A stretch of 64,000 bases of DNA from an uncultured bacterium (lineage in GTDB: Bacteria > B130-G9). The notes below the pieces were generated by a model. The model was not told where the DNA came from and ran no database searches. It was given only the letters and a program-made list of their open reading frames with translations. This document shows, in pieces, positions 31,866 through 42,722 of this stretch. Position 1 is the first letter of the stretch; every line of letters starts with the position of its first letter. The stretch is from positions 16,262 to 80,261 of the forward strand of contig CAYZPW010000001.1 in assembly GCA_964480475.1 (NCBI GenBank). The letters run 5' to 3'. The position numbers were made by a program, and so were the translations under genes.

Positions 31866-34800
31866 CTAGTGGAACTCAAATGGGGTTACCCAGATGTCGG
31901 TGACGGGCGAGAGGGTGCCTGGCCAGCAAAAGGCGGTGTAGAACGTGTATGTCCCGGGCGCGAGCGAGCCGTCCAGAACGACGTCGATGAACGTGAGTCC
32001 TTCTGGACAGTAGTATCCGGGCAGCGGGCGCCACTCTATCGGCGTCAGATCAACGCTAAACCCCGGCAGGCACAGCATCTGGCTGTCCGGCAAGACGACC
32101 ACCGCGTAAAGGTCAACGTCAACCGGCTCTCCGGGGTTGTAGCAATAGAAATCGGCCGTGAGCCGGTCGCCAGCATGGAAATCATCTCCGTTCACGAGGA
32201 TGGCGGCCGTTGGGGCGCCGTCGCTTGGATAGCTCCCGACGCAGTTTGAGACCTGCGACCAATTGTTGGAATCGTCAACCGCCTTGATCGCGAAGTAATG
32301 ATACGTTCCGGGCACGAAGCCCGACACAACGAACTGCTCAGCCGAGCCGCTCGTCCGCGGCGTCCAGGAAGTCGAATCAGCATAGACCGTCGCGGCAGGC
32401 CAGCTTGTCTCATTAATAGGGGCGGCGCCGAACCTAAGCTCGTAGGCGCTTGCGGTTCCGAATCGACCGTTATCGCCGGTCGCGGTGAAGCTTAGGAGTA
32501 ACTCGCCCGCGTTGAGCCATTTTCTGGCCGCAAGGTCGCATATCGGCGACGGCGGCACGGTTTCGCCGGTCGGCGTCGCGGAGGCCACATTCGACATCCG
32601 CGAGCCGTTGCTCGCCTCGTCGTAGGCCTTAATTGCGAAGTAGTGGGTCACGTTCGCCGTGAGGCCAGAGACCGCGAACGTCTCTGCGCTTCCTGCCGGC
32701 TGCGGCATCCAGAATAGAGAAGGCTCGTACAATGTGGCGCTCGAGAAGGTGTCAGCCGTGATCATCGACAACGAGTAGCGCAGCTCGTAGGACGACGCTG
32801 TGCCCTCGATGCCGCTGTCGCCCGTGGCGGTGAATCTCAACACGACGGAGTTCTCGCCAGCGGTCGCGGAGAGATTCTGTATAGAGGACGGCGGAACCGT
32901 ATCGCGGCCCGCTGTAGCTGAGGCGCAGTTTGAGACCTCCGATTGGTTTGAACCGTCGTCAAACGCCTTGAGCGCGAAGTAGTATGTTCTGCCGGAGACA
33001 AGGCCTGAGATGGTCTTCAGCTCCTGCTCTCCCGCTTCAAGTGGGGTCCAAGCGAGCGAGGGTTGATAGGTCTCCACGAACGCCCAGTTGGTGGCGCCGA
33101 TCTCAAACTCAGCGTATTTGAGGATGTAGCGGGTCGCGGCGCCGACAGTTCCGTCGTCGCCCGTCGCCGTCCAAAATAGGATCAATTGACCTTCCACCTC
33201 GCCGTCCTGGCCAGCGAGGTCCTCAATTCGCGCCGGTGGCACTTGGTCCTGACCGCCACCGGCGGACGCGCAGTTGGACACGGCCGACCAGTTCTCGGCG
33301 TCATCGACGGAGATGATGGCGAAGTAACACGGTATGCTGGAATCGAACCCGGAGATGACGAACGATTCGCTCGTGCCGGCCGTCTGGGGGACCCATTCAA
33401 GGGAGGGCGCATAGACCTGGGCGGCGTCCCAGTTGCCCGCGTTGATGAATGATTCAGAGTATCTGAGCTCGTAGCCGACGACTGTGCCGACGGTTCCGTC
33501 GTCGCCCGGCGCCGTGAAACTCAGCGTTATTTGACCCTCGAATGGCCCGGAAACCGCAAGCAAGTCCTCGATTGCCGCCGGCGGCACATCATCTGACGGC
33601 GCCTCAGTTGAGGCGAGATTCGAGATTGCCGAGGCGTTGCCCGCGTCGTCGAACACCTTGAGCGCGAAGTAGTATGCGGCTTCTGCGCCCAAGCCCGTCA
33701 CCGTTCTCTGCTCCTTGACTCCGGCTTGGACGGGCGTCCACGAGGTTGATGGCTCATAGAGCGTCACGGTGGAGAAATCGGACGCATCAAACGGCTCGGT
33801 GTGGTATCGCAGCTCGTAGCGCGCCGCCGTGCCGGAGCTGCCGTCATCGCCCGAGGCCGTCCAGCTGAGGTCGCAGGTTGTGGGGGTGTCGGCGTCCCGT
33901 TGAGCCGAGAGGTCCTCGACCCTTGCTGGTGGGACATTATCGTGCCCCGAGCCAACGAACATCATCTCGATCGTTGCGTCCGCGAGGTTGCCCCCGCCGT
34001 CGCGAGCATAAACGCTGAGTTCAACTATGCCCTGGCCGCTGTATGACACAGGCAGGTCGTTTGAATAGACGAAATCGCCCGGCCGGAGGTCCCCGTGCGT
34101 GCCGTCGTCGTAGAGCTCGGTGTCCGTCTCGCCGCCAATCGGGAGCAGATTAGCAGTTACGGAGGTTATGTTGCCGCGGCCATCCTTGTGCACCGCACAG
34201 ACGCAGAACAGGACATCAACTTCGCCGTTCTTCCCAGGCGCCGAGTCAACCACAGCCGGATATGACAGCGCGTAGGCTATTTCAACGGTCGAGCTGCCGC
34301 CGCTCTCACGGACCGAGCGCTGGGTCGTGCCCACGTCAACGGTCGCCTGAACAAGTTCGCCCTGCGAGACGGTGAAATCGCCCGACTGGGGCACGAACAG
34401 AGTCTCGAGGTCTTCGTCGCCACCGGAGAAATCCTCTACCATGAGGTAGAACGTGCCCGGAGCAGGAAAGAAGCTCACTCTTCCCGACGCGGCGAGGCTA
34501 CCCTCGTTCTTTCGGCCCAAATAGAGGCCGTCGTCCGCGAAAAGATAGGCCCTTGCCGACTGGAACGCCGCTCCGTTCTTCTGAACGGTAACCTCCACCT
34601 CGTTCTCCACGAACGTCTTTGTGATGCTTATGGATTCGGCCGCCGAGAGCTTGACGAGGCGCTCGCATCTCGAATCCCTCACATCGGCGCCAGATGTGAA
34701 TTGGAGCCTGTATTGGCCCGGAGGCACGGTTAGCGTCCGCTGGCCGTCGTCGCCTACACCGTAGTCTGGGGTCGAGGCTACCCATTTGCCTGAGCTTTCG

Positions 34801-37202
34801 TCGAAGACCTCGACGTCGCCGTTGCACGGGCCGTTTGTGTTCTCGATTCTTGCGTGGATGTATGCCGTATCGACAACTACGTCCCGGTCGAGGCTCTGTC
34901 CGCTGGCGAGCGAGACAGGAGAATCGAGGCTCTGCACGTGCGTGGCGCCATCAAAGCCCTGATATGTCAGTTGGGCCTCGTATTGGCCGGTTAGGAGCAC
35001 ATAGGAGCGCTCGCCCAACGGCAGTGCGCCAACGTCGGGGGGCATGCGCCTCGTATCGTCTTTGTGGAGCAGGCTCGTAAAATCCTTGTAGCCGTCCGAT
35101 GCCGGAACGTAGATGTAGAGCGCAAGATTGCTCGTAACCGGCCCCGCCGAATCGAACGTCGAAATCGTCAGCTGCCCTTGCCCCACGGTCTTGGAATGCT
35201 GCTTACGCTGGCCCGCGGCGAGCTGTATCGGATAGTCGATGGGGTGCGCGGCGATGCTGTTGGGATCGACGTATTGGTATCGGAAGCTGAACGTTGACGG
35301 CATCAGGTTGAACGTGTGATCGCTGGCGGCAAGAAGTGGATAGCCGTCGGCCGCAGTCAGGAGCGTCCCCGCCGAGTTATATATCCAAATCCTGCCCTCA
35401 GCCGAGCCGTCCCGGTCGCGCAGGTCAACCCAGACCGTGCCGTTGCCAAACGTAACGGTATCCGCGTCGCTCGCGCCCTCGGCCAGTGTGAATCCCCTCG
35501 TGATAACGCAGGCGTTAGGCGAGGACTCGTCATAGGCATACTTGATGGTGTATGTGCCCGCCGGGACATCCCACTCCTGAAACCCGTCGTCGCCTACGCC
35601 ATAGCGCGTGGTCTCCTCGACGAGCGCCCCGGTCTCCTCGTCGTAGATCGATGCGCCGCCGTTGCACGACCCATTGGCGTCGCGGAGATAGATGCCCAGC
35701 GTGCACGAGTCCGTGCCGCGCTCAAAGTCCAAGAGGTCGAGCGTGTATGAGTTCGCCTCCAGGTCGTTTGCTTCGATGTCGAAAAAGAACCGCTCAATTG
35801 GATCGCCCTCTTGAGGCGCGAAATAGACCTGAACGATGTATGTGGCTGGGATGACGTTATCAAATGAGCAGAGCCCGCCTTCGTGGGCCAGCGCGCTCGC
35901 CACCGCGTCGCCTGTGTCCTGATTGAGAAGGAACGCCGTCGCGGAACTGGCGGGGACGTTCTCGCCATCGTAGCGGACCCTCAGCGAGAGATCGCTGCCC
36001 CGCTCGACGGCGATCTGTAGCGTTTCAGTTGCGCCAGCGGCAAGTTCCCGGCCGACGAGGAACCACGTCTTCGAGGGCTCAACGAGCGAGTTCTCGACCT
36101 TGACGCTCACGCTGCCGGCAGGGACGTATCCGAAATCGACGATACCTCCAGGCCCGGGGGATTTGCCCTCATCAATCACGTCGAAACTCGGGTCGTGTAT
36201 CAGCGAGAGCTTCACAGCGTCATCGACAATTGGCGTTCCCGCGGCGTCCTTCACCTCGCAGCGCAGCCTCGCGACCTCGTCAAGAAGGATCGGGAGATTC
36301 ACGCTAAGGTCCGCCGGCGCCTCAAGGTCAAAGAAATATCGCTCCAGGCTCACAAGGCCGCGGTTATAGACGACCTTGATTTTGTAGTAGCCTGCGACTA
36401 CTTCGCCAAAGTCGGCCCTGCCGGAGCCGTCGCACAACAGCGCGTCAACGACCTCCGAAAACGGCGCCGATTGGTGCGACAAGAAGACCGTCGCCGAACC
36501 GGTCAGCGCTCGACCGAATGAGTCGGAGACCGTGAACTTCAGGCCCGAACAGAGCGGTATCTCGACGCGCCTCGTCTGGTTCGAGTTCGGCTGAACCACG
36601 ACGTCGAACGTGTGAAATCCGCCTTCAGGCCGAATCGACCAATGCCGCACCTTCGCGGAGTATATCCCTGGAACCACGTCATCGAAGTGCGCCTCTCCCA
36701 GACCGTCGCAGCGAACGCTGTCAACGAGATTGCTGGTGATTTGATCGTATAGATAGACGTCAATGTCGCCGTCCGGAACGGAGCCCGCCTCAGACCGAAC
36801 CCGTATTCTGAGATCGCCGCTGGAGCGAAAATTGATGGAGTCCTGAACGTCCTGCCCCGGGCCGACGACGATGTGGTGCTTGAACTTGACCACGACCGGC
36901 TGCACGCGCACGTGCTTGACCCTGATGAAATAAGTGTTGGCGCCTAAGCCCGAGAAAGTCAGCTTGCCCTCGGCGTCCGTCATGATTTTGCCAGGCGGGT
37001 CCTGAAACGCCAGATTGCCCTCGACAAACAGCGCGCCCTCCGCGTCGCCCGCAGAGACAGAACCCAAATCGTCAAGAACTGTCAGCTCGATACTCGCCGC
37101 GGCCGCGTCCGAGGCGGACCCCAATGAGCTGCTGCAAACCAGAAGCGCAAGCACTAGAAACGCTTGCGGCCAATTTCGGGCCTCTGAATTCCTATTCATC
37201 AT
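31866..37202 (-). CDS. giant secreted protein: Ig/CarboxypepD_reg-like beta-sandwich repeats, five tandem FN3-like repeats and a distinct C-terminal domain
   Basis: 1778 aa. N-terminal signal peptide. Five ~108-aa repeats (PPA.IEDL...GDDG..G....YELRY...Y.FA.KA.D...N.S). C-terminal ~120 aa share motifs with the C-terminus of ORF 60047..61723. Confidence 0.75.
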   Translation of the reverse strand: MMNRNSEARNWPQAFLVLALLVCSSSLGSASDAAAASIELTVLDDLGSVSAGDAEGALFVEGNLAFQDPPGKIMTDAEGKLTFSGLGANTYFIRVKHVRVQPVVVKFKHHIVVGPGQDVQDSINFRSSGDLRIRVRSEAGSVPDGDIDVYLYDQITSNLVDSVRCDGLGEAHFDDVVPGIYSAKVRHWSIRPEGGFHTFDVVVQPNSNQTRRVEIPLCSGLKFTVSDSFGRALTGSATVFLSHQSAPFSEVVDALLCDGSGRADFGEVVAGYYKIKVVYNRGLVSLERYFFDLEAPADLSVNLPILLDEVARLRCEVKDAAGTPIVDDAVKLSLIHDPSFDVIDEGKSPGPGGIVDFGYVPAGSVSVKVENSLVEPSKTWFLVGRELAAGATETLQIAVERGSDLSLRVRYDGENVPASSATAFLLNQDTGDAVASALAHEGGLCSFDNVIPATYIVQVYFAPQEGDPIERFFFDIEANDLEANSYTLDLLDFERGTDSCTLGIYLRDANGSCNGGASIYDEETGALVEETTRYGVGDDGFQEWDVPAGTYTIKYAYDESSPNACVITRGFTLAEGASDADTVTFGNGTVWVDLRDRDGSAEGRIWIYNSAGTLLTAADGYPLLAASDHTFNLMPSTFSFRYQYVDPNSIAAHPIDYPIQLAAGQRKQHSKTVGQGQLTISTFDSAGPVTSNLALYIYVPASDGYKDFTSLLHKDDTRRMPPDVGALPLGERSYVLLTGQYEAQLTYQGFDGATHVQSLDSPVSLASGQSLDRDVVVDTAYIHARIENTNGPCNGDVEVFDESSGKWVASTPDYGVGDDGQRTLTVPPGQYRLQFTSGADVRDSRCERLVKLSAAESISITKTFVENEVEVTVQKNGAAFQSARAYLFADDGLYLGRKNEGSLAASGRVSFFPAPGTFYLMVEDFSGGDEDLETLFVPQSGDFTVSQGELVQATVDVGTTQRSVRESGGSSTVEIAYALSYPAVVDSAPGKNGEVDVLFCVCAVHKDGRGNITSVTANLLPIGGETDTELYDDGTHGDLRPGDFVYSNDLPVSYSGQGIVELSVYARDGGGNLADATIEMMFVGSGHDNVPPARVEDLSAQRDADTPTTCDLSWTASGDDGSSGTAARYELRYHTEPFDASDFSTVTLYEPSTSWTPVQAGVKEQRTVTGLGAEAAYYFALKVFDDAGNASAISNLASTEAPSDDVPPAAIEDLLAVSGPFEGQITLSFTAPGDDGTVGTVVGYELRYSESFINAGNWDAAQVYAPSLEWVPQTAGTSESFVISGFDSSIPCYFAIISVDDAENWSAVSNCASAGGGQDQVPPARIEDLAGQDGEVEGQLILFWTATGDDGTVGAATRYILKYAEFEIGATNWAFVETYQPSLAWTPLEAGEQELKTISGLVSGRTYYFALKAFDDGSNQSEVSNCASATAGRDTVPPSSIQNLSATAGENSVVLRFTATGDSGIEGTASSYELRYSLSMITADTFSSATLYEPSLFWMPQPAGSAETFAVSGLTANVTHYFAIKAYDEASNGSRMSNVASATPTGETVPPSPICDLAARKWLNAGELLLSFTATGDNGRFGTASAYELRFGAAPINETSWPAATVYADSTSWTPRTSGSAEQFVVSGFVPGTYHYFAIKAVDDSNNWSQVSNCVGSYPSDGAPTAAILVNGDDFHAGDRLTADFYCYNPGEPVDVDLYAVVVLPDSQMLCLPGFSVDLTPIEWRPLPGYYCPEGLTFIDVVLDGSLAPGTYTFYTAFCWPGTLSPVTDIWVTPFEFH
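32230..33860 (-). repeat. five tandem ~324-bp coding repeats (FN3-like units) inside the giant gene
   Basis: Five consecutive, alignable ~108-aa units in the translation. Coordinates are approximate. Confidence 0.45.
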
Positions 37203-37336: not shown

Positions 37337-37693
37337 TCAAGCACGTTGACCTCTGATTCGCACCGCACCAGGTGTGATCACTGTAAAACTGTGAGCCAGT
37401 TCATCGGCATGTTCTTGCACAGCAATTGCCACAACCTCCGCTTTCCGTGTTGGAGATAGACCAGACAAGCGCGTCAATACAACCCCGTGAGCCACGCGTC
37501 CCTGTCGAAACACCAATTCCCCAAAATCCTTGTCCGCAGTCAAGACTAACGCTTGTTCTTGGTTTGCTCTTCTCAGCACATCCTCATCCGAACTGCTCGG
37601 TTCCATCTCGACTACGTTGAGGACAGAATGACCATCGTCTCTGAGACGGTCAACGATTGGTTCATCCACGTTTTCGTCGGCCAGGAACTTCAC
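37337..37693 (-). CDS. DUF5615 PIN-like putative toxin
   Basis: MKFLADENVDEPIVDRLRDDGHSV...DKDFGELVF. 4-bp overlap with the upstream DUF433 gene. Confidence 0.65.
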   Translation of the reverse strand: MKFLADENVDEPIVDRLRDDGHSVLNVVEMEPSSSDEDVLRRANQEQALVLTADKDFGELVFRQGRVAHGVVLTRLSGLSPTRKAEVVAIAVQEHADELAHSFTVITPGAVRIRGQRA

Positions 37694-37938
37694 CGCACCG
37701 CTTCCGGCAGCGGATACACGACATCCGCCCTTAATGCCTCCGCAGCAAACGCAAGCGCAGCTTGGATAGAGTCGCGAGTCAATCTGGGATGGGCCTCAAG
37801 AATCTGCTCAACCGTCTCACCGGCAGCCAGCTTCTCAAGAATCAGCTCGACGGTGATGCGTGTGCCCGCGATTACCGGCTTGCCCATCATAATCGAGGGA
37901 TCTGATTGAATAATGCCTCTGTCCATACCTCTCATCAC
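37690..37938 (-). CDS. DUF433 putative antitoxin
   Basis: MGKPVIAGTRITVELILEKLAAGETVEQILEAHPRLTRDSIQAALAFAAE matches DUF433 strongly. Confidence 0.7.
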   Translation of the reverse strand: MMRGMDRGIIQSDPSIMMGKPVIAGTRITVELILEKLAAGETVEQILEAHPRLTRDSIQAALAFAAEALRADVVYPLPEAVR

Positions 37939-38126
37939 CTTGGTCCCGCTAAATGTTCCCTAATGCCTATTGAAAAAGGCAAGACTACCACACCTTCCTC
38001 ATAAATGTCGCCAAGCCTCGTCCTCCTCGGGCATTAGCCAATCCTTCGCAAGAGAGCTTTGGGTCACCACTGCGGTTCCTGTTGCTTCTCCTACTGCTTA
38101 GCAACCGAGGCATTGCGACCCGAGTT

Positions 38127-38312
38127 CTACATGCAGAGACTGTGCTGGCCTTTGTCGAGCTCCTCAATAGTCCCCAAATGCGCTTCTATTGCGTCCTTGA
38201 TGTTCTCCAAGGCCTCGTCTTGGGTTCGTCCCTGCGACCAGCAGCCCGGCAGGCCAGGGACCCAAACAGCATAGCCTTCTTCCGTCTTCTTGAGACTTAC
38301 TCTGTATTTCAT
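38127..38312 (-). CDS. hicB: HicB-family antitoxin (short form), copy 1
   Basis: YRVSLKKTEEGYAVWVPGLPGCWSQGRTQDEALENIKDAIEAHL. Confidence 0.6.
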   Translation of the reverse strand: MKYRVSLKKTEEGYAVWVPGLPGCWSQGRTQDEALENIKDAIEAHLGTIEELDKGQHSLCM

Positions 38313-38398
38313 AACGCCTCCACACTTCTCTCAAGCATCTCGCTCACTCTGTCCCCTCGCAAGCCAGAAGTTGACCGATACGAGAGCTCGCTGTCGTC

Positions 38399-38620
38399 TC
38401 ACAGCAACTCAAGGAATTCCTCAATGGTGAGGCCAGAATTGCGGATTAGGACCCGAAGCGTTCCAACAGACAGTTCTCTGTGTTGGGGAATCGAGAGGTT
38501 GGCCCTCACACCGGGTTTGACCATCACCACGTGACTACCAACTTGGCCAAGCCGCTCCCAGCCGGCCTTTTGAAAGGCCTTGGCAGCATCCTTGCCTGAG
38601 ATGTTCGCCAATCGGGCCAC
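38399..38620 (-). CDS. hicA: HicA-family mRNA interferase toxin; non-ATG start, N-terminus uncertain
   Basis: C-terminus ...GSHVVMVKPGVRANLSIPQHRELSVGTLRVLIRNSGLTIEEF. The longer ORF 38399..38815 extends over hicB2 in another frame. Confidence 0.55.
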   Translation of the reverse strand: MARLANISGKDAAKAFQKAGWERLGQVGSHVVMVKPGVRANLSIPQHRELSVGTLRVLIRNSGLTIEEFLELL

Positions 38621-38624
38621 AGGG

Positions 38625-38840
38625 CTACACTGACACGACGATGGCTTTCTGGCCGGGCCCTTGCGCCAACGTAGCGGTTGCCTTCTGGTCCTCGGCCCAC
38701 AACCAAGCAATGATTGCTTCTTTGATGTTCTCCAGGGCTTCCTTTTCGTCCTTACCCTGAGAGACGCACCCGGGAAGCGCTGGACACTCCGCAACAAGCC
38801 AGCCATCTTCGGCACGCTCGACTGTAACGTGAAACATCAT
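38625..38840 (-). CDS. hicB: HicB-family antitoxin (short form), copy 2
   Basis: MMFHVTVERAEDGWLVAECPALPGCVSQGKDEKEALENIKEAIIAWL. Paralogous to copy 1. Confidence 0.55.
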   Translation of the reverse strand: MMFHVTVERAEDGWLVAECPALPGCVSQGKDEKEALENIKEAIIAWLWAEDQKATATLAQGPGQKAIVVSV

Positions 38841-38853
38841 GGCTCTGACCCTC

Positions 38854-39060
38854 CTATTGCATGGCAGGCAAAGTCCGGTTGTCATTCGCCTGCTTTCCCA
38901 ATGACGTGACGTATTCGAGAAAACTCAATCCTTCGAGCTCCGCCTCTCTGGCAATGATCTTCCTCCCGATATGGACCTGTTGCAGGGGCCGATCCTCAGG
39001 GAACTCCGCCTCAACCGTCCTTCTTATTGCTTTTGTTTCTTCTTCTGCGATTGCGCTCAT
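38854..39060 (-). CDS. small hypothetical protein (68 aa), possible antitoxin-like or regulatory protein
   Basis: Compact ORF with coding-like composition, packed between hicB2 and the methyltransferase gene. No family recognised. Confidence 0.3.
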   Translation of the reverse strand: MSAIAEEETKAIRRTVEAEFPEDRPLQQVHIGRKIIAREAELEGLSFLEYVTSLGKQANDNRTLPAMQ

Positions 39061-39293
39061 ATCGTACTTTCTATCTACCGGTGACAGTGTCGTTCAACTC
39101 ACTTCCGTGACTGGTGCTGAGCGATTAGGCTACGAACCTTAGGAACCAATGCATAGGGGATCTTCATAATGCTCTGGCCCTGTTGTTCGCATACTGCTTC
39201 ATCTTCAGCCACGGCCTGCTCTTCAGTCTGATGCTCATAATGAGCTAACACCCGACGGACTCGCTCTTCATCCGGGTGGAAACCTGCTCTCCT

Positions 39294-39809
39294 TCACTTG
39301 TCTTCCTCTCTCTTGCCGCCCGCCGCACAATCCGCAGATTCTCTGTATCCATCTTTCGAGAAACTATACGTCTTCTTGCCCTCTCGCAAGAGCCTGAACA
39401 GTCTTTTCTTCGTCACTTCGGACAGGACCTCATCCTCTTTCATATGATGATCGCTGAAGGATAGAATCCCATCTTGTTTCATCACTCGATGCAGCTCCTC
39501 TAATACTCCGTCTGGGTCAGTTAGTGTGTGAAAGGTGTCGTATAGGATAACTACGTCAATGCTACTGTCTGGCAATTGAGTCCTGCAATCGGAGCAAATG
39601 GTTGTCACATTCGTCAATTGCCTTTTAGAAGCCATTTTCTGAACGCTCCGAATCGCGAGCGGGTGGATATCCAAGGCGTAGATTCTTCCCGATTTCCCCG
39701 CCAATTCCGCCACCCCGGTTACGTAACCTCCAGGACCACACCCATAATCGAGCACGTGAGACCCCGGCCTTTCGGTCATGTTCCTCACTCGGTAAGCCTT
39801 GTCAGACAT
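39294..39809 (-). CDS. class I SAM-dependent methyltransferase
   Basis: Motif I VLDYGCGPGGY; post-I acidic residue (ALDI); motif IV-like ILYDTFH. Confidence 0.65.
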   Translation of the reverse strand: MSDKAYRVRNMTERPGSHVLDYGCGPGGYVTGVAELAGKSGRIYALDIHPLAIRSVQKMASKRQLTNVTTICSDCRTQLPDSSIDVVILYDTFHTLTDPDGVLEELHRVMKQDGILSFSDHHMKEDEVLSEVTKKRLFRLLREGKKTYSFSKDGYRESADCAAGGKREEDK

Positions 39810-39818
39810 TAGGGCGTT

Positions 39819-40076
39819 TCACGCATATTCGTAGAGAGGCGCTGTCCCAGCAGGTTCAGAAGCTGTTTGCAGCAATGCCTCAATCCGACGCACTGTGTCC
39901 GGCTTCAGGAGGACGTCCCCGCATACCGAGCAAACCTCTGCCGGCACGTGATCAATGACAACCACTTGCCCGTTGCGGCGCACGGTGTGTGCAATCTGTC
40001 TCTCCTCATATTGACCGGGACAGCCTTCAATTGTACAATTCATCGACATCACCTCCTTTGGGTAGGTGTTCGCCAT
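39819..40076 (-). CDS. YgiT-type (MqsA-like) zinc-finger putative antitoxin
   Basis: CTIEGCPGQYEER...VVVIDHVPAEVCSVCGDVLL matches the TIGR03831-type CxxC...CxxC pattern. Confidence 0.55.
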   Translation of the reverse strand: MANTYPKEVMSMNCTIEGCPGQYEERQIAHTVRRNGQVVVIDHVPAEVCSVCGDVLLKPDTVRRIEALLQTASEPAGTAPLYEYA

Positions 40077-40354
40077 TTCGGTTCTTCAGGCTCATACACG
40101 GTAATCACGATTAGCGCTGGCTGTGATGTTGTGCATACGATGTGCAAAGGACGACCAGCACGTGTGAGGCCGTTGAGCAGACAACACGCTCCTCGCCGGT
40201 GTTCCGGATAATTCTCCAGGATCTTTCCTGAGGTTATAGCATCCAAGACTTCGTCGAGGGTGATGTCTTCCTCAACCATCTCTTGGTACCCATGTTGCGT
40301 AATGTGGAGGTTCTCCGCCGAGGCCTGAGCGCGTATCCGGTGCAACACAGTCTT
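40049..40354 (-). CDS. DUF4258 putative toxin
   Basis: ITQHGYQEMVEEDITLDEVLDAITSGKILENYPEHRRGACCLLNGLTRAGRPLHIVC...LIVITVYEP. Overlaps the zinc-finger gene by 28 bp. Confidence 0.55.
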   Translation of the reverse strand, partial: KTVLHRIRAQASAENLHITQHGYQEMVEEDITLDEVLDAITSGKILENYPEHRRGACCLLNGLTRAGRPLHIVCTTSQPALIVITVYEPEEPKWRTPTQRR

Positions 40355-40427
40355 AAGATCCATGCTACGAGTATCATCCATTAAAGCTAACCCATACAGG
40401 GGTAATGAAGCGCCGGCACAGTTCGCC

Positions 40428-40643
40428 TCAATAGTTCCTGTTGTGACATTTCTCCAGCCGCTCAAAGTATATCTTCTTTATCTCCTCATCCGATTTGTCG
40501 GGGAATCTCTTTCTGAGCCCGTGTAAGAATAGCCCTCGAACGAACTCAGACAGCTCGAAGCACTTGAGCAGCCTCGCCTCGGGTGTCATGGAGCGAAGTA
40601 TCTGAATATGCAGCTTGTGATTCGCACGCTCTTTGATATTCAT
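40428..40643 (-). CDS. small hypothetical protein (~71 aa) in a lower-GC segment
   Basis: MNIKERANHKLHIQILRSMTPEARLLKCFELSEF... Local GC is about 48%, against ~60% elsewhere. Confidence 0.3.
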   Translation of the reverse strand: MNIKERANHKLHIQILRSMTPEARLLKCFELSEFVRGLFLHGLRKRFPDKSDEEIKKIYFERLEKCHNRNY

Positions 40644-40718
40644 CCCTCGCAGTACAACTCCTTGAGATCGGCCCAAATGGGGCTCAGCAGCGCCAAGAAA
40701 CGCAACCTAGACTCGTTT

Positions 40719-41123
40719 CTATCTCAGTATCTCCAGCCTGACCTCGACCAGGCCCGCCTCGAGCATGTCGAGCTCTTTTGCCGCGCCCAGCGACAAGTCG
40801 ATTATCCTCTTCTTCTTGTCCTTGAACGGGCCCCGGTCGTTTATGCGTACGACGACGCTCCTGCCATTCTCCAGGTTGGTGACCCTGACCCACGTGTCAA
40901 ATGGCAGCGTTCTGTGCGCCGCTGTCATGGCGAACATGTTATAGGTCTCGCCGTTTGCCGTCTTGCGACCGTGGAACTTGCCGCCATACCAGGACGCGTA
41001 GCCGTATTGAACGCCTTTCCTGATCTTGTGCGATCTGTGGGCGCAGCATCCGAGTGCGATGGATAACGTGAGTATGACGGCTAGTGTGCGGCAGAGCTTT
41101 GCGCCTCGCTTGGGCATGATCAC
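40719..41123 (-). CDS. rlpA: septal-ring lytic transglycosylase RlpA-family lipoprotein (DPBB domain)
   Basis: Lipobox [27 protein letters not shown]...[22 protein letters not shown]. Confidence 0.7.
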
Positions 41124-41225
41124 CCTCTCAAGAGCCTTTCGTAGCAGATATTGAGCAGAATACCGCCGAGCAATATGAACGATTAGGCTTGGTTCTGCAA
41201 CCTACGCGCCCGCGTGCCCGTATCG

Positions 41226-42722
41226 TCAGGTCGTGTCCCCTCTTTGCCCGAATGAACCCCTGAAGAGGTATTTGAAGAAGGTCTTGGCGGCCTTCTTGGT
41301 CCGACTTATCTCGCTTGGATGTCGAATCATCTGAAGGGCCTTCCGAGCGATATAGCTCGGCCTCAGGTAGAACTTCTGACGCGCCTCGTCACACCACTTG
41401 ACCAGCTCCTTGCCCGAGAAGTCGCCCGTCCTGACAACGCAGTTGTGCAAACCCTCCTCCGTCAGCCAGTCGGAGTATCTATCGACGGTCAGAAAGCCAC
41501 CTGCCTGATACTCGTCGTAGAGCTCTGTCCCAGGATACGCCATTATCGGATAGAACTGCGCGGTGTCAGGCGACAGTTCAAGGGCCAGATCAAGCGTTTT
41601 TTGCATCGTCTCGCGCGTTTCTCCTGGCAGGCCAACCATAAAGCATCCGTGCACCAGAATCCCCGCGCGCCTCGCGTCATCGGCGAAGGTGTGCATCATC
41701 TGAACCGTCGTCCCCTTGTGAATAGCATCCAGAAGCGCCTGAGAGCCGCTCTCGAAGCCGACGCAAACCATCCGGCACCCCGCCATCCTCATGGCCCTCA
41801 GTGACTCGTAATCAACGTCGGCCCGGCAGTTTGCTGTCCACGGAAACCTAATGCCGCGCCTCTTCACAAGTTCACAGAACTCGATGCAACGTGTCTTGTC
41901 CGCCGGAAGCGTGTCGTCCTCAAAGAAGATCGACCTCGCGTTCGGGAAGTGCTGGATCACGTATTGCATCTCCTCGACAACGTTCTCCGGCGAACGAAAT
42001 CGATAGCGCCGCCCGTGCATCGTCTGCGGATAAACGCAGAACGTGCAGCCGTTGGGACAGCCCCGGCCAGCGTTGACCGTTACCATAGGATACAGGGCGT
42101 TGGGGTTGAAATAGTCCTCTATCCGCAGGAATCTGTTATAAATTGGCGCCACGAAAGGCAGAGCGTCCAGGTCCTCGATTGGCTCTCTGCTTGCCGTTCT
42201 CACAAACTCGCCATCGTTGAGATATGCAACGCCCGGTATCGCCTCGAGCTCCATCTCGCCCGCGACCCATCTCGCCAGGTCCAAAACGGTATAGTCGTAC
42301 TCGCCGATGCAAATGCCATCCAGCGCGTCCGTGCTTCGCAGAGTCTCCTCAGGCAGCGCGGAGGGATGCGTCCCGACCGCAAAGACCTTGGTCTTGATCC
42401 GCGACTTGATCGCCTCGGCCACCTTGAGGTCGTTTTCGAGGCTCGGCGTCACTACATCCATTATCACCAGGTGAGGCGCAAAACCGGAGACCTTGCTGAG
42501 AACCTCTTCGAGCGCAATTCCCGCTGCGGGCGCGTCCCAGAGCTCCGCCTGAACGCCTGCTTCCAGAAGAACGCCAGTCGCGTGAGCCAGCCAAATCGGG
42601 AAGTAGATCGTCCCGCTCTTGGTTACAGCTGGGCTGCGCTGCGGCCGCGAGAACTTCTTGAAATACGGCGCATTCAGCACCAGGACCCGAAGGTCATTAA
42701 GGTTCTTCACATTCCTCTTCAT
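41226..42722 (-). CDS. B12-binding-domain radical SAM protein
   Basis: N-terminal cobalamin-binding-like domain. CPNGCTFC (CxxxCxxC). Confidence 0.75.
   Translation of the reverse strand: MKRNVKNLNDLRVLVLNAPYFKKFSRPQRSPAVTKSGTIYFPIWLAHATGVLLEAGVQAELWDAPAAGIALEEVLSKVSGFAPHLVIMDVVTPSLENDLKVAEAIKSRIKTKVFAVGTHPSALPEETLRSTDALDGICIGEYDYTVLDLARWVAGEMELEAIPGVAYLNDGEFVRTASREPIEDLDALPFVAPIYNRFLRIEDYFNPNALYPMVTVNAGRGCPNGCTFCVYPQTMHGRRYRFRSPENVVEEMQYVIQHFPNARSIFFEDDTLPADKTRCIEFCELVKRRGIRFPWTANCRADVDYESLRAMRMAGCRMVCVGFESGSQALLDAIHKGTTVQMMHTFADDARRAGILVHGCFMVGLPGETRETMQKTLDLALELSPDTAQFYPIMAYPGTELYDEYQAGGFLTVDRYSDWLTEEGLHNCVVRTGDFSGKELVKWCDEARQKFYLRPSYIARKALQMIRHPSEISRTKKAAKTFFKYLFRGSFGQRGDTT

What the first reader, a model, noticed from the sequence alone, without database searches (positions are those of the whole stretch)
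37337..40676. Ten-gene minus-strand run of toxin-antitoxin modules with uncharacterised members
The run is tightly packed with overlapping stop and start codons. In order it holds DUF4258 with a YgiT zinc-finger antitoxin, a class I methyltransferase, a 68-aa orphan, HicB, HicA, a second HicB, and DUF433 with DUF5615. A ~71-aa ORF sits at the 5' end in a GC-poor segment (~48% vs ~60%). A HicA flanked by two HicB paralogues is unusual. The methyltransferase plus its downstream 68-aa ORF, and the GC-poor small ORF, have no assigned role and could be new toxin-antitoxin or defence components acquired horizontally.
Basis: partly seen in the sequence, partly recalled or inferred. Interest (0 to 1): 0.55.

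Follow-up and report, generated by a model that had tools for sequence, protein, structure and literature searches.

The report
Mosaic, partly decayed toxin-antitoxin gene island
This stretch is an ordinary horizontally acquired island of toxin-antitoxin genes. Three modules are intact, and the "mystery" genes are leftovers of known or recognisable modules: a truncated methyltransferase, a frameshifted small gene and two antitoxin-like genes that have lost their toxins.

Summary
Window 37337-40676 (minus strand) holds the genes listed, at 52.8% GC, the lowest of any 3340-nt stretch in the 64-kb window.

The proposed methyltransferase + 68-aa pair is not supported.
- **Methyltransferase:** it is a 5'-truncated copy of a widespread stand-alone 176-aa enzyme. 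Syntenic relatives carry the full-length gene at this spot; a closer relative keeps only its last 35 codons.
- **68-aa ORF:** in 47 of 57 informative genomes its homologue lies about 10 nt downstream of a ~152-aa PIN-domain gene. That gene is absent from the window, so this is an orphaned PIN partner.
- **71-aa GC-poor ORF:** it is a MenA1 (Rv0078B)-like antitoxin. In 66 of 75 loci with a downstream ORF, its homologue is followed by an overlapping 188-aa MenT1-like nucleotidyltransferase gene. Only about 8 homologous codons of that gene survive here, because a DUF4258-YgiT cassette replaced it together with the methyltransferase 5' end.
- **Missed eleventh gene (39099-39297):** it belongs to an unannotated 67-aa family often coupled to DUF4258-like toxins. 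A 5-nt deletion has frameshifted it.

Intact modules are DUF4258-YgiT, HicB-HicA plus a second HicB, and DUF433-DUF5615. Interest is low. Two small-protein families with no Pfam or NCBIfam match are a minor by-product.

The parts
40428..40643 (-). 71-aa MenA1 (Rv0078B)-like antitoxin gene, orphaned. The longest ORF extends to 40676.
   Evidence: There are 294 cluster representatives, and 20 of 40 homologues hit PF18993. The window copy itself scores only 14 bits. In 66 of 75 loci the homologue is followed by a MenT1-like NTase gene.
40387..40449 (-). Stub of the MenT1-like nucleotidyltransferase toxin gene (MSQQELLR..., then unrelated codons and a stop)
   Evidence: The start lies 22 nt upstream of the 71-aa ORF stop, as in 66 relatives. 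Homology to L003 and L087 ends at 40408 and 40427. No NTase-family match anywhere in the window.
40049..40381 (-). DUF4258 toxin gene (RelE/ParE-superfamily fold), 110 aa
   Evidence: PF14076, 71 bits. Part of the ~660-nt segment absent from L003, L087 and L088.
39819..40076 (-). YgiT/MqsA-N-type zinc-ribbon antitoxin gene, 85 aa, overlapping DUF4258 by 28 nt
   Evidence: TIGR03831, 32.9 bits against a cut-off of 20.2. DUF4258-MqsA fusions are described in PMC11980606.
39294..39809 (-). 5'-truncated class I SAM methyltransferase ORF (171 aa) with a 19-aa non-family C-terminal tail
   Evidence: Family residues 37-174 align to 39767-39354; the first 36 have no match. Full-length 176-aa orthologues sit at the same position in L087 and L088. 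L003 keeps only 35 codons.
39099..39297 (-). Frameshifted gene of a 67-aa family with no Pfam or NCBIfam match (MK..FPPGWDEERVRRVLAHYE.QTEEEAVAEDEAA...). Its GTG start overlaps the methyltransferase stop.
   Evidence: 2719 homologues. A 5-nt deletion lies inside the invariant PPGWDE codons relative to L003 and L087. Intact homologues overlap a DUF4258-like toxin gene by 4 nt in 8 places.
38854..39060 (-). 68-aa orphan partner of a PIN-domain toxin family (three-helix protein)
   Evidence: 107 homologues with no Pfam hit. A PIN gene lies directly upstream in 47 of 57 informative loci. AF2 model pLDDT 90.4. No PIN of that family in the window.
38625..38840 (-). HicB1, short HicB/UPF0150-type antitoxin (71 aa, no DNA-binding domain)
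   Evidence: PF15919 26.6 bits and PF21748 24.2 bits, both just under cut-off. 51% identical to HicB2. 4-nt spacer to HicA.
38399..38620 (-). HicA toxin gene (73 aa, GSH motif present)
   Evidence: PF07927, 49.5 bits against a cut-off of 27.
38127..38312 (-). HicB2, second short HicB antitoxin (61 aa). It has its own GGAGG ribosome-binding site and lies 86 nt after HicA.
   Evidence: PF15919, 41.3 bits. Sequence read.
37690..37938 (-). DUF433 (COG2442) predicted antitoxin gene
   Evidence: PF04255, 85.8 bits. The PIN-COG2442 pairing was predicted in PMC2701414.
37337..37693 (-). DUF5615 PIN-like predicted toxin gene, overlapping DUF433 by 4 nt
   Evidence: PF18480 94.3 bits and PF18478 (PIN_10) 29.5 bits.

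Best explanation
The region is a recombination-prone island of type II toxin-antitoxin (TA) genes. It lies between an rlpA-like gene and a giant FN3-repeat surface-protein gene.

Three modules look intact and should work as their families do:
- DUF4258 is a putative RelE/ParE-fold RNase, neutralised by a YgiT/MqsA-type zinc-ribbon antitoxin.
- HicA is an mRNA interferase neutralised by a short HicB. A second, separately translated HicB paralogue lies downstream.
- DUF5615 is a PIN-like nuclease paired with a DUF433 antitoxin.

The remaining four genes are relics of gene turnover:
- An ancestral arrangement survives in relatives L087 and L088: rlpA, MenA1-like antitoxin, MenT1-like nucleotidyltransferase toxin, full-length 176-aa methyltransferase. 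L087 continues with the 67-aa small gene; L088 ends at the methyltransferase.
- In the window's lineage a ~660-nt DUF4258-YgiT cassette replaced the NTase toxin gene and the first 36 codons of the methyltransferase. This left an orphan MenA1-like antitoxin and a truncated methyltransferase ORF.
- The 67-aa gene then acquired a 5-nt frameshifting deletion.
- The 68-aa gene is the downstream partner of a PIN-domain toxin family whose toxin gene is missing here.

Shown: the homologies, the synteny, the breakpoints and the frameshift. Inferred: the order of events, the activity of each toxin and antitoxin, and that the truncated methyltransferase is inactive.
For: - **Domain assignments:**
- **Methyltransferase truncation:** the alignment shows the family N-terminus (about 38 aligned residues) replaced by 14 unrelated residues, plus a 19-aa foreign tail. 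tblastn aligns family residues 37-174 only.
- **Synteny:** L087 and L088 (81-83% nt identity in the flanks) carry rlpA, the 71-aa gene, a 188-aa NTase and a full 176-aa methyltransferase. L087 also has the intact 67-aa gene. L003 (93-95% identity) has 89 nt in place of window 40408-39398, with an NTase stub fused to the last 35 methyltransferase codons.
- **71-aa family:** 20 of 40 homologues hit PF18993. 66 of 75 downstream ORFs belong to the 188-aa NTase family. That family's profile best matches MenT1, PDB 8AN4, at E=3e-6. Rv0078B is MenA1, the antitoxin of MenT1 (PMC10435456).
- **68-aa family:** a PIN gene (PF01850) ends about 10 nt upstream in 47 of 57 informative loci.
- **67-aa family:** the 5-nt deletion is shown. 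Coupling to a DUF4258-like toxin is seen in 8 places.
- **Missing partners:** no PIN or NTase of these families anywhere in the 64 kb.
- **Composition:** low GC and GC3.
Against: - The truncated methyltransferase keeps an open 171-aa frame with all core SAM-binding motifs. It is identical in several samples, so residual function cannot be excluded.
- The window's own 71-aa protein scores below the PF18993 cut-off (14 against 27 bits). Its assignment rests on its homologues and their neighbours.
- That the 68-aa and 67-aa proteins are antitoxins is inferred only from gene neighbourhood. Neither matches a Pfam or NCBIfam model (the 68-aa protein was also scanned against PADLOC), and the 68-aa model matches no solved structure.
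- The direction of events (insertion versus differential deletion) is inferred from three relatives.
- No expression data are available.
Confidence: 0.8

Rival explanations
1. One reading: the methyltransferase and the 68-aa ORF form a new two-gene toxin-antitoxin or defence module.
For: The two genes are near each other on the same strand in a TA island. The methyltransferase domain resembles that of the MADS defence protein Mad2 (PADLOC, E=3e-22). The order methyltransferase, 67-aa gene, 68-aa gene (or a remnant of it) is shared by the window, L003 and L087.
Against: - They are separated by a frameshifted gene.
- Of 66 loci with a 68-aa homologue, only the near-identical relative L003 has any methyltransferase sequence.
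- The 68-aa family pairs with PIN genes.
- Three methyltransferase homologues examined are stand-alone, with no small partner.
- The window copy is truncated.
- The Mad2 match covers only the generic methyltransferase domain, positions 290-415 of 492.
Confidence: 0.04
2. The truncated methyltransferase is a functional minimal enzyme, now co-transcribed with DUF4258-YgiT as a three-gene unit (for example modifying the toxin's RNA target or the antitoxin).
For: The 171-aa frame is open and starts 9 nt after the YgiT stop. Motif I (VLDYGCGPG) and the other invariant core residues are retained. The same sequence occurs in several samples.
Against: - 36 conserved N-terminal residues are lost and a foreign tail is added.
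- No ribosome-binding site is evident upstream.
- The close relative L003 has deleted the gene.
- The other DUF4258-YgiT pair seen, in L108, has no methyltransferase match.
Confidence: 0.1
3. The orphan antitoxin-like genes (71-aa MenA1-like, 68-aa PIN partner, second HicB) are retained because they act in trans. They would neutralise cognate toxins encoded elsewhere in the genome or on invading elements (anti-addiction).
For: Both orphans keep intact frames, whereas neighbouring relics are truncated or frameshifted. Both are also intact in L003. The 71-aa gene is additionally intact in L087 and L088, where its toxin gene is still present.
Against: No cognate toxin lies within the 64 kb and the rest of the genome was not available. 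The relatives are too close for retention to prove selection. L087 has lost most of the 68-aa gene.
Confidence: 0.15

Closest known systems
MenAT1 (MenA1/Rv0078B - MenT1/Rv0078A) nucleotidyltransferase toxin-antitoxin system of M. tuberculosis (PMC10435456)
   Same: A small (~70 aa) antitoxin gene lies upstream of, and overlaps, a ~190-aa NTase toxin gene. Homologues of the 71-aa ORF hit PF18993. The partner family's best solved relative is MenT1 (8AN4).
   Different: In the window the toxin gene is reduced to a stub of about 8 homologous codons. The window protein itself scores below the Pfam cut-off. The NTase partner matches MenT1 over its N-terminal ~75 residues only (E=3e-6).
HicAB / HicBA type II TA systems
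   Same: A HicA toxin domain with the GSH motif. HicB-fold antitoxins are adjacent, with the antitoxin-first order known from S. pneumoniae HicBA.
   Different: Two HicB paralogues (51% identical) flank one HicA. Both are short (61-71 aa) and lack the RHH or HTH DNA-binding domain that many HicB proteins carry.
DUF4258 toxins with MqsA-like antitoxins (RelE/ParE superfamily survey, PMC11980606)
   Same: A DUF4258 toxin is followed by a zinc-ribbon MqsA-N-type antitoxin. That survey lists DUF4258-MqsA fusions.
   Different: The antitoxin has only the YgiT zinc-finger part (85 aa) and no C-terminal HTH. The activity of the DUF4258 family is uncharacterised.
PIN - COG2442/DUF433 predicted TA pairs (Makarova et al. 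2009, PMC2701414)
   Same: A DUF433 gene overlaps a PIN-like (DUF5615) gene by 4 nt, in antitoxin-first order.
   Different: None noted. This is a standard example and is untested experimentally here.
VapBC (PIN toxin with upstream antitoxin)
   Same: The 68-aa family is tightly linked to a PIN-domain (PF01850) gene.
   Different: The order is reversed, with the PIN gene first. The partner is a three-helix protein with no Pfam family, no detectable VapB-type DNA-binding domain and no solved structural relative. The PIN gene is absent from the window.

Membership tests
MenA1 / Rv0078B-related antitoxin (PF18993) | Sequence match to the family model above its cut-off | tested here: inconclusive
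   The window protein scores 13.8-14.3 bits against a cut-off of 27.1. 20 of 40 homologues match at E<=0.01, best 7.6e-8.
MenA1 / Rv0078B-related antitoxin (PF18993) | Gene located directly upstream of a MenT-like nucleotidyltransferase toxin gene | tested here: not met
   In the window only a stub remains (40449-40387) and no NTase match exists in the 64 kb. The feature is met in relatives: 66 of 75 downstream ORFs, with the NTase profile matching MenT1 8AN4 at E=3e-6.
MenA1 / Rv0078B-related antitoxin (PF18993) | Binds and neutralises its NTase toxin | not testable with these tools
   Needs co-expression or binding assays.
HicAB | HicA toxin domain with catalytic histidine | tested here: met
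   PF07927, 49.5 bits against 27. The GSH motif is present in the sequence.
HicAB | Adjacent HicB-fold antitoxin | tested here: met
   HicB2 scores 41.3 bits on PF15919. HicB1 scores 26.6 against 27 and is 51% identical to HicB2.
DUF4258 - MqsA-like TA | DUF4258 domain | tested here: met
   PF14076, 71 bits against 25.
DUF4258 - MqsA-like TA | MqsA-family antitoxin (zinc finger plus C-terminal HTH) | tested here: not met
   The YgiT zinc finger is met (TIGR03831, 32.9 against 20.2). Full-length MqsA models are not: TIGR03830 scores 20.4 against 61.8 and PF15731 17.1 against 30. The 85-aa protein has no HTH.
PIN - DUF433 (COG2442) TA | DUF433 gene adjacent to a PIN-like gene | tested here: met
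   PF04255 85.8 bits, PF18480 94.3 bits and PIN_10 29.5 bits, with a 4-nt overlap.
Class I SAM methyltransferase, 176-aa family | Rossmann-fold SAM-binding core | tested here: met
   Methyltransf_31, 82.7 bits. The invariant core residues are present.
Class I SAM methyltransferase, 176-aa family | Full-length architecture including the conserved N-terminal ~36 residues | tested here: not met
   The N-terminus is replaced by 14 unrelated residues. tblastn aligns residues 37-174 only.
MADS defence system (Mad2) | Full-length Mad2 (492-position model) with the other mad genes nearby | tested here: not met
   The PADLOC match covers model positions 290-415 only. No other PADLOC hit occurs in the run.
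VapBC-like PIN module (68-aa ORF as partner) | PIN-domain toxin gene adjacent | tested here: not met
   Absent from the window. Present next to homologues in 47 of 57 loci.

The most novel reading that the evidence does not exclude
The 68-aa gene belongs to an undescribed two-gene module: a PIN-domain toxin followed by a three-helix partner. This module travels as a small integrase-less cassette. In other genomes it sits in arrays of TA or defence cassettes, each bracketed by a repeated copy of the 3' end of a housekeeping gene (tldD or carB). The window's copy would be a stranded remnant of such a cassette. Separately, the orphan antitoxins in the window could be retained as in-trans anti-addiction factors.
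Probability: 0.25. Interest if true: 0.5.

Novelty: new member of a known kind. Interest (0 to 1): 0.22.

Why it matters
The main value is as a correction. The apparently unassigned genes in this island are explained by gene decay and cassette replacement, not by a new defence mechanism. The island is a clear small example of TA turnover at one chromosomal hotspot: three relatives each show a different subset of modules, stubs and orphans.

Two by-products may help annotation. A ~2700-member 67-aa family is coupled to DUF4258-like toxins. A ~100-member 68-aa family is coupled to PIN toxins, mainly in ANME and other archaea and in sediment bacteria. Neither family matches any Pfam or NCBIfam model.

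Tried and rejected
1. **The 68-aa ORF as a split-off RHH DNA-binding domain of HicB.** Rejected. The AF2 model is three helices with no N-terminal strand. Homologues are next to PIN genes, not Hic genes.
2. **A decayed hicA downstream of HicB2, which would explain the two HicBs as tandem hicBA modules.** Not supported. No Pfam hit at E<=10 and no BLASTP alignment to HicA.
3. **Fold or sequence relatives of the 68-aa protein among solved structures.** None. hmmsearch found 0 hits at E<=10. The best Foldseek hit had E about 1, weakly homeodomain-like.
5. **Host-gene direct repeats bracketing cassettes in the window island, as seen around PIN-68aa cassettes elsewhere.** None.
6. **Promoter and terminator scans.** Not above the shuffled expectation.
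7. **Viral contigs for the 67-aa family.** Only one locus.
8. **Traces of the missing methyltransferase N-terminus in other frames.** None significant.
9. **Organism name from protein clusters.** None given.


Full report
**1. Observation**

Profile scans confirm the assignments:
- DUF4258 (40049-40381): 71 bits.
- YgiT-type zinc finger (39819-40076): TIGR03831, 32.9 bits.
- Class I SAM methyltransferase (39294-39809): Methyltransf_31, 82.7 bits.
- HicB-like (38625-38840): 26.6 bits, just under the cut-off.
- HicA (38399-38620): 49.5 bits.
- Second HicB (38127-38312): 41.3 bits.
- DUF433 (37690-37938): 85.8 bits.
- DUF5615/PIN-like (37337-37693): 94.3 bits.

The run is 52.8% GC. That is the lowest 3340-nt stretch in the 64-kb window (mean 57.0%, sd 2.0). 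GC3 is 0.39-0.66 in the run and 0.73-0.79 in the flanking rlpA-like, radical-SAM and giant FN3 genes. The 71-aa ORF is 47.2% GC. The same arrangement occurs on independent contigs from other samples (L001, L002, L086).

Not all junctions are tight. Overlaps or spacers of 13 nt or less occur at five junctions:
- DUF4258/YgiT
- methyltransferase/next gene
- 68-aa ORF/HicB1
- HicB1/HicA
- DUF433/DUF5615

The other gaps are 38-190 nt.

**2. The methyltransferase is a truncated relic**

The protein has more than 3000 homologues of about 176 aa. They are 70-75% identical to it but cover only about 82% of it. The alignment shows why:
- The family's conserved N-terminus (MDKP..FK.MSF.YKFRD.FLPRMNILKEVGIKPG) is replaced in the window by 14 unrelated residues.
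- The family's normal end (TYSF.K..) is followed here by a foreign 19-residue tail.
- tblastn with a full-length orthologue aligns residues 37-174 to 39767-39354. It finds no trace of the first 36 residues in 38000-41500.

Three homologues examined on long contigs are stand-alone genes in unrelated neighbourhoods, with no TA genes or small partners.

**3. Synteny shows what happened**

- **L087 and L088.** These two metagenome contigs share the window's flanks at 81-83% nt identity. Both carry rlpA, the 71-aa gene, a 188-aa nucleotidyltransferase (NTase) gene overlapping it, and a full-length 176-aa methyltransferase. L088 ends there. L087 also carries the radical-SAM gene upstream, and continues with an intact 67-aa gene, a remnant of the 68-aa gene, a truncated DUF433 and the giant FN3 gene. 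It has no Hic genes and no DUF4258-YgiT.
- **L003.** This closer relative (93-95% identity) is colinear with the window except that window 40408-39398 is replaced by 89 nt. That leaves an NTase stub fused to the last 35 methyltransferase codons.
- **The window.** About 660 nt carrying DUF4258-YgiT (roughly 40427-39767) occupy the place of about 700 nt in L087. Those 700 nt hold the NTase gene and the methyltransferase 5' end.

The simplest reading is cassette replacement in the window's lineage and an independent deletion in L003. Either way the methyltransferase is dispensable and damaged here.

**4. The GC-poor 71-aa ORF**

The ORF has 294 cluster representatives. 20 of 40 homologues hit PF18993, the Rv0078B-related antitoxin family. 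The window protein itself is sub-threshold at about 14 bits.

80 metagenome loci were examined, and 75 of them have a downstream ORF. In 66 of those 75 the ORF starts 22 nt before the small gene's stop and belongs to one conserved family, 188 aa where full length (MSQQELLR...GS..SSLQGEPRSTHDIDLV). A profile of that family best matches PDB 8AN4 at E=3e-6. 8AN4 is MenT1 (Rv0078A), and Rv0078B is its antitoxin MenA1 (PMC10435456).

The window retains only MSQQELLR of this toxin gene, at 40449. No NTase of the family exists anywhere in the 64 kb. The 71-aa ORF is therefore an orphaned MenA1-like antitoxin gene.

**5. A missed, frameshifted gene**

Directly after the methyltransferase stop (GTGA overlap) lies a member of a family of about 67 aa with 2719 homologues and no Pfam or NCBIfam match. 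Relative to L003 and L087 the window has a 5-nt deletion inside the invariant PPGWDE codons, so the gene is broken.

Of 30 places examined (several are near-identical contexts from related samples):
- In 8 an intact homologue overlaps by 4 nt an upstream 94-99-aa gene with a DUF4258 match near threshold.
- In 5 there is only a fragment of such a gene.
- In the rest the homologue is solo.

This suggests an antitoxin-like partner of DUF4258-type toxins.

**6. The 68-aa ORF**

The ORF has 107 homologues and no Pfam family. Many are from ANME, Altiarchaeales, Asgard and other archaea, and from sediment bacteria.

66 genome loci were analysed, and 57 have room upstream. In 47 of those 57 a PIN-domain gene (PF01850, 41 bits) ends about 10 nt upstream. 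It is about 152 aa where intact and fragmentary in some loci. Only the near-identical L003 shares the window's methyltransferase and Hic context.

The AF2 model is a confident three-helix bundle (pLDDT 90.4). It has no sequence or fold relative among solved structures. No PIN of this family occurs in the window. The ORF is best read as the orphaned downstream partner, presumably the antitoxin, of a PIN toxin. The pairing is shown by neighbourhood; the role is inferred.

**7. Intact modules**

- **DUF4258-YgiT.** DUF4258 belongs to the RelE/ParE superfamily, its activity is unknown, and fusions to MqsA are known (PMC11980606).
- **HicB1-HicA.** They are separated by 4 nt.
- **HicB2.** It is 51% identical to HicB1, lies 86 nt after HicA and has its own GGAGG site. 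Both HicBs lack a DNA-binding domain. The trio is conserved in L003 and absent in L087. I could not quantify how unusual it is. An attempt to explain it by a decayed second hicA failed.
- **DUF433-DUF5615.** This is the PIN-COG2442 pairing predicted by Makarova et al. (PMC2701414).

**8. Verdict**

The idea of a new methyltransferase + 68-aa module is not supported, and PADLOC finds no defence system.

The island is an ordinary, mosaic, partly decayed TA cluster. Two small-protein families with no Pfam or NCBIfam match are minor annotation gains.

One unrelated lead came from other genomes. There, PIN-68aa cassettes are often bracketed by repeated copies of a host gene's 3' end, sometimes in arrays with other TA or defence cassettes.

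Noticed in passing
L004:3205-8139 (Dehalococcoidia MAG JAUWRG010000003); also L006:2912-4632, L007, L010, L053 and others: In 15 of 66 loci the PIN-68aa pair is bracketed by direct repeats of 46-400 nt at 82-98% identity. In the two loci inspected in detail the repeat is the 3' end of the adjacent host gene. In L004 the last ~235 nt of a complete tldD/pmbA-like gene recur four times. Between the copies lie three different small cassettes: PIN+68aa; a 128-aa ORF plus a YgiT-like finger; and an AAA-ATPase, a 176-aa ORF and a YgiT-like finger. No integrase is visible in the 8 kb. In L006 the repeated sequence is 400 nt of the carB 3' end. This looks like accretion of integrase-less cassettes at one target. 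The mechanism is unknown.
   Followed up: partly
window 39099-39297 and family P0228-P0347: A family of about 2700 proteins of ~67 aa (MK..FPPGWDEERVRRVLAHYE.QTEEEAVAEDEAA..VP.ELVP.VR.LIA.HQ) has no Pfam or NCBIfam model. In several places it is translationally coupled (4-nt overlap) to a 94-99-aa DUF4258/BrnT-like toxin gene. It is a likely unannotated antitoxin family.
   Followed up: partly
window 37940-38126 (minus strand, gap between HicB2 and DUF433): A short reading frame ends ...VVTQSSLAKDWLMPEEDEAWRHL*. From memory, this resembles the C-terminal tails of some small antitoxins, so it may be another gene remnant. It has no Pfam hit at E<=10.
   Followed up: partly
L003:5316-5661: In the close relative the DUF5615/PIN-like gene is split into two overlapping ORFs (apparent frameshift). 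In L087 the DUF433 gene is truncated and DUF5615 is absent. This shows further decay of the same island in relatives.
   Followed up: no
window 31866-37202 (minus strand): A 1778-aa secreted protein with many fibronectin-III-like repeats lies immediately downstream of the island. Together with the rlpA-like gene (40719-41123) and the B12-radical-SAM gene (41226-42722), it forms the conserved flanks of the hotspot in L003 and L087.
   Followed up: no
Methyltransferase family P0109-P0227 (e.g. L073:4001-4531, L074:4001-4531): A stand-alone methyltransferase of about 176 aa is 64-75% identical to the window copy across Aerophobetes, Chloroflexi, Deltaproteobacteria and others. It has invariant CSDC and SFSDHHMKE motifs and no assigned substrate. 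That level of conservation is unusually high for a gene with no conserved neighbourhood.
   Followed up: no
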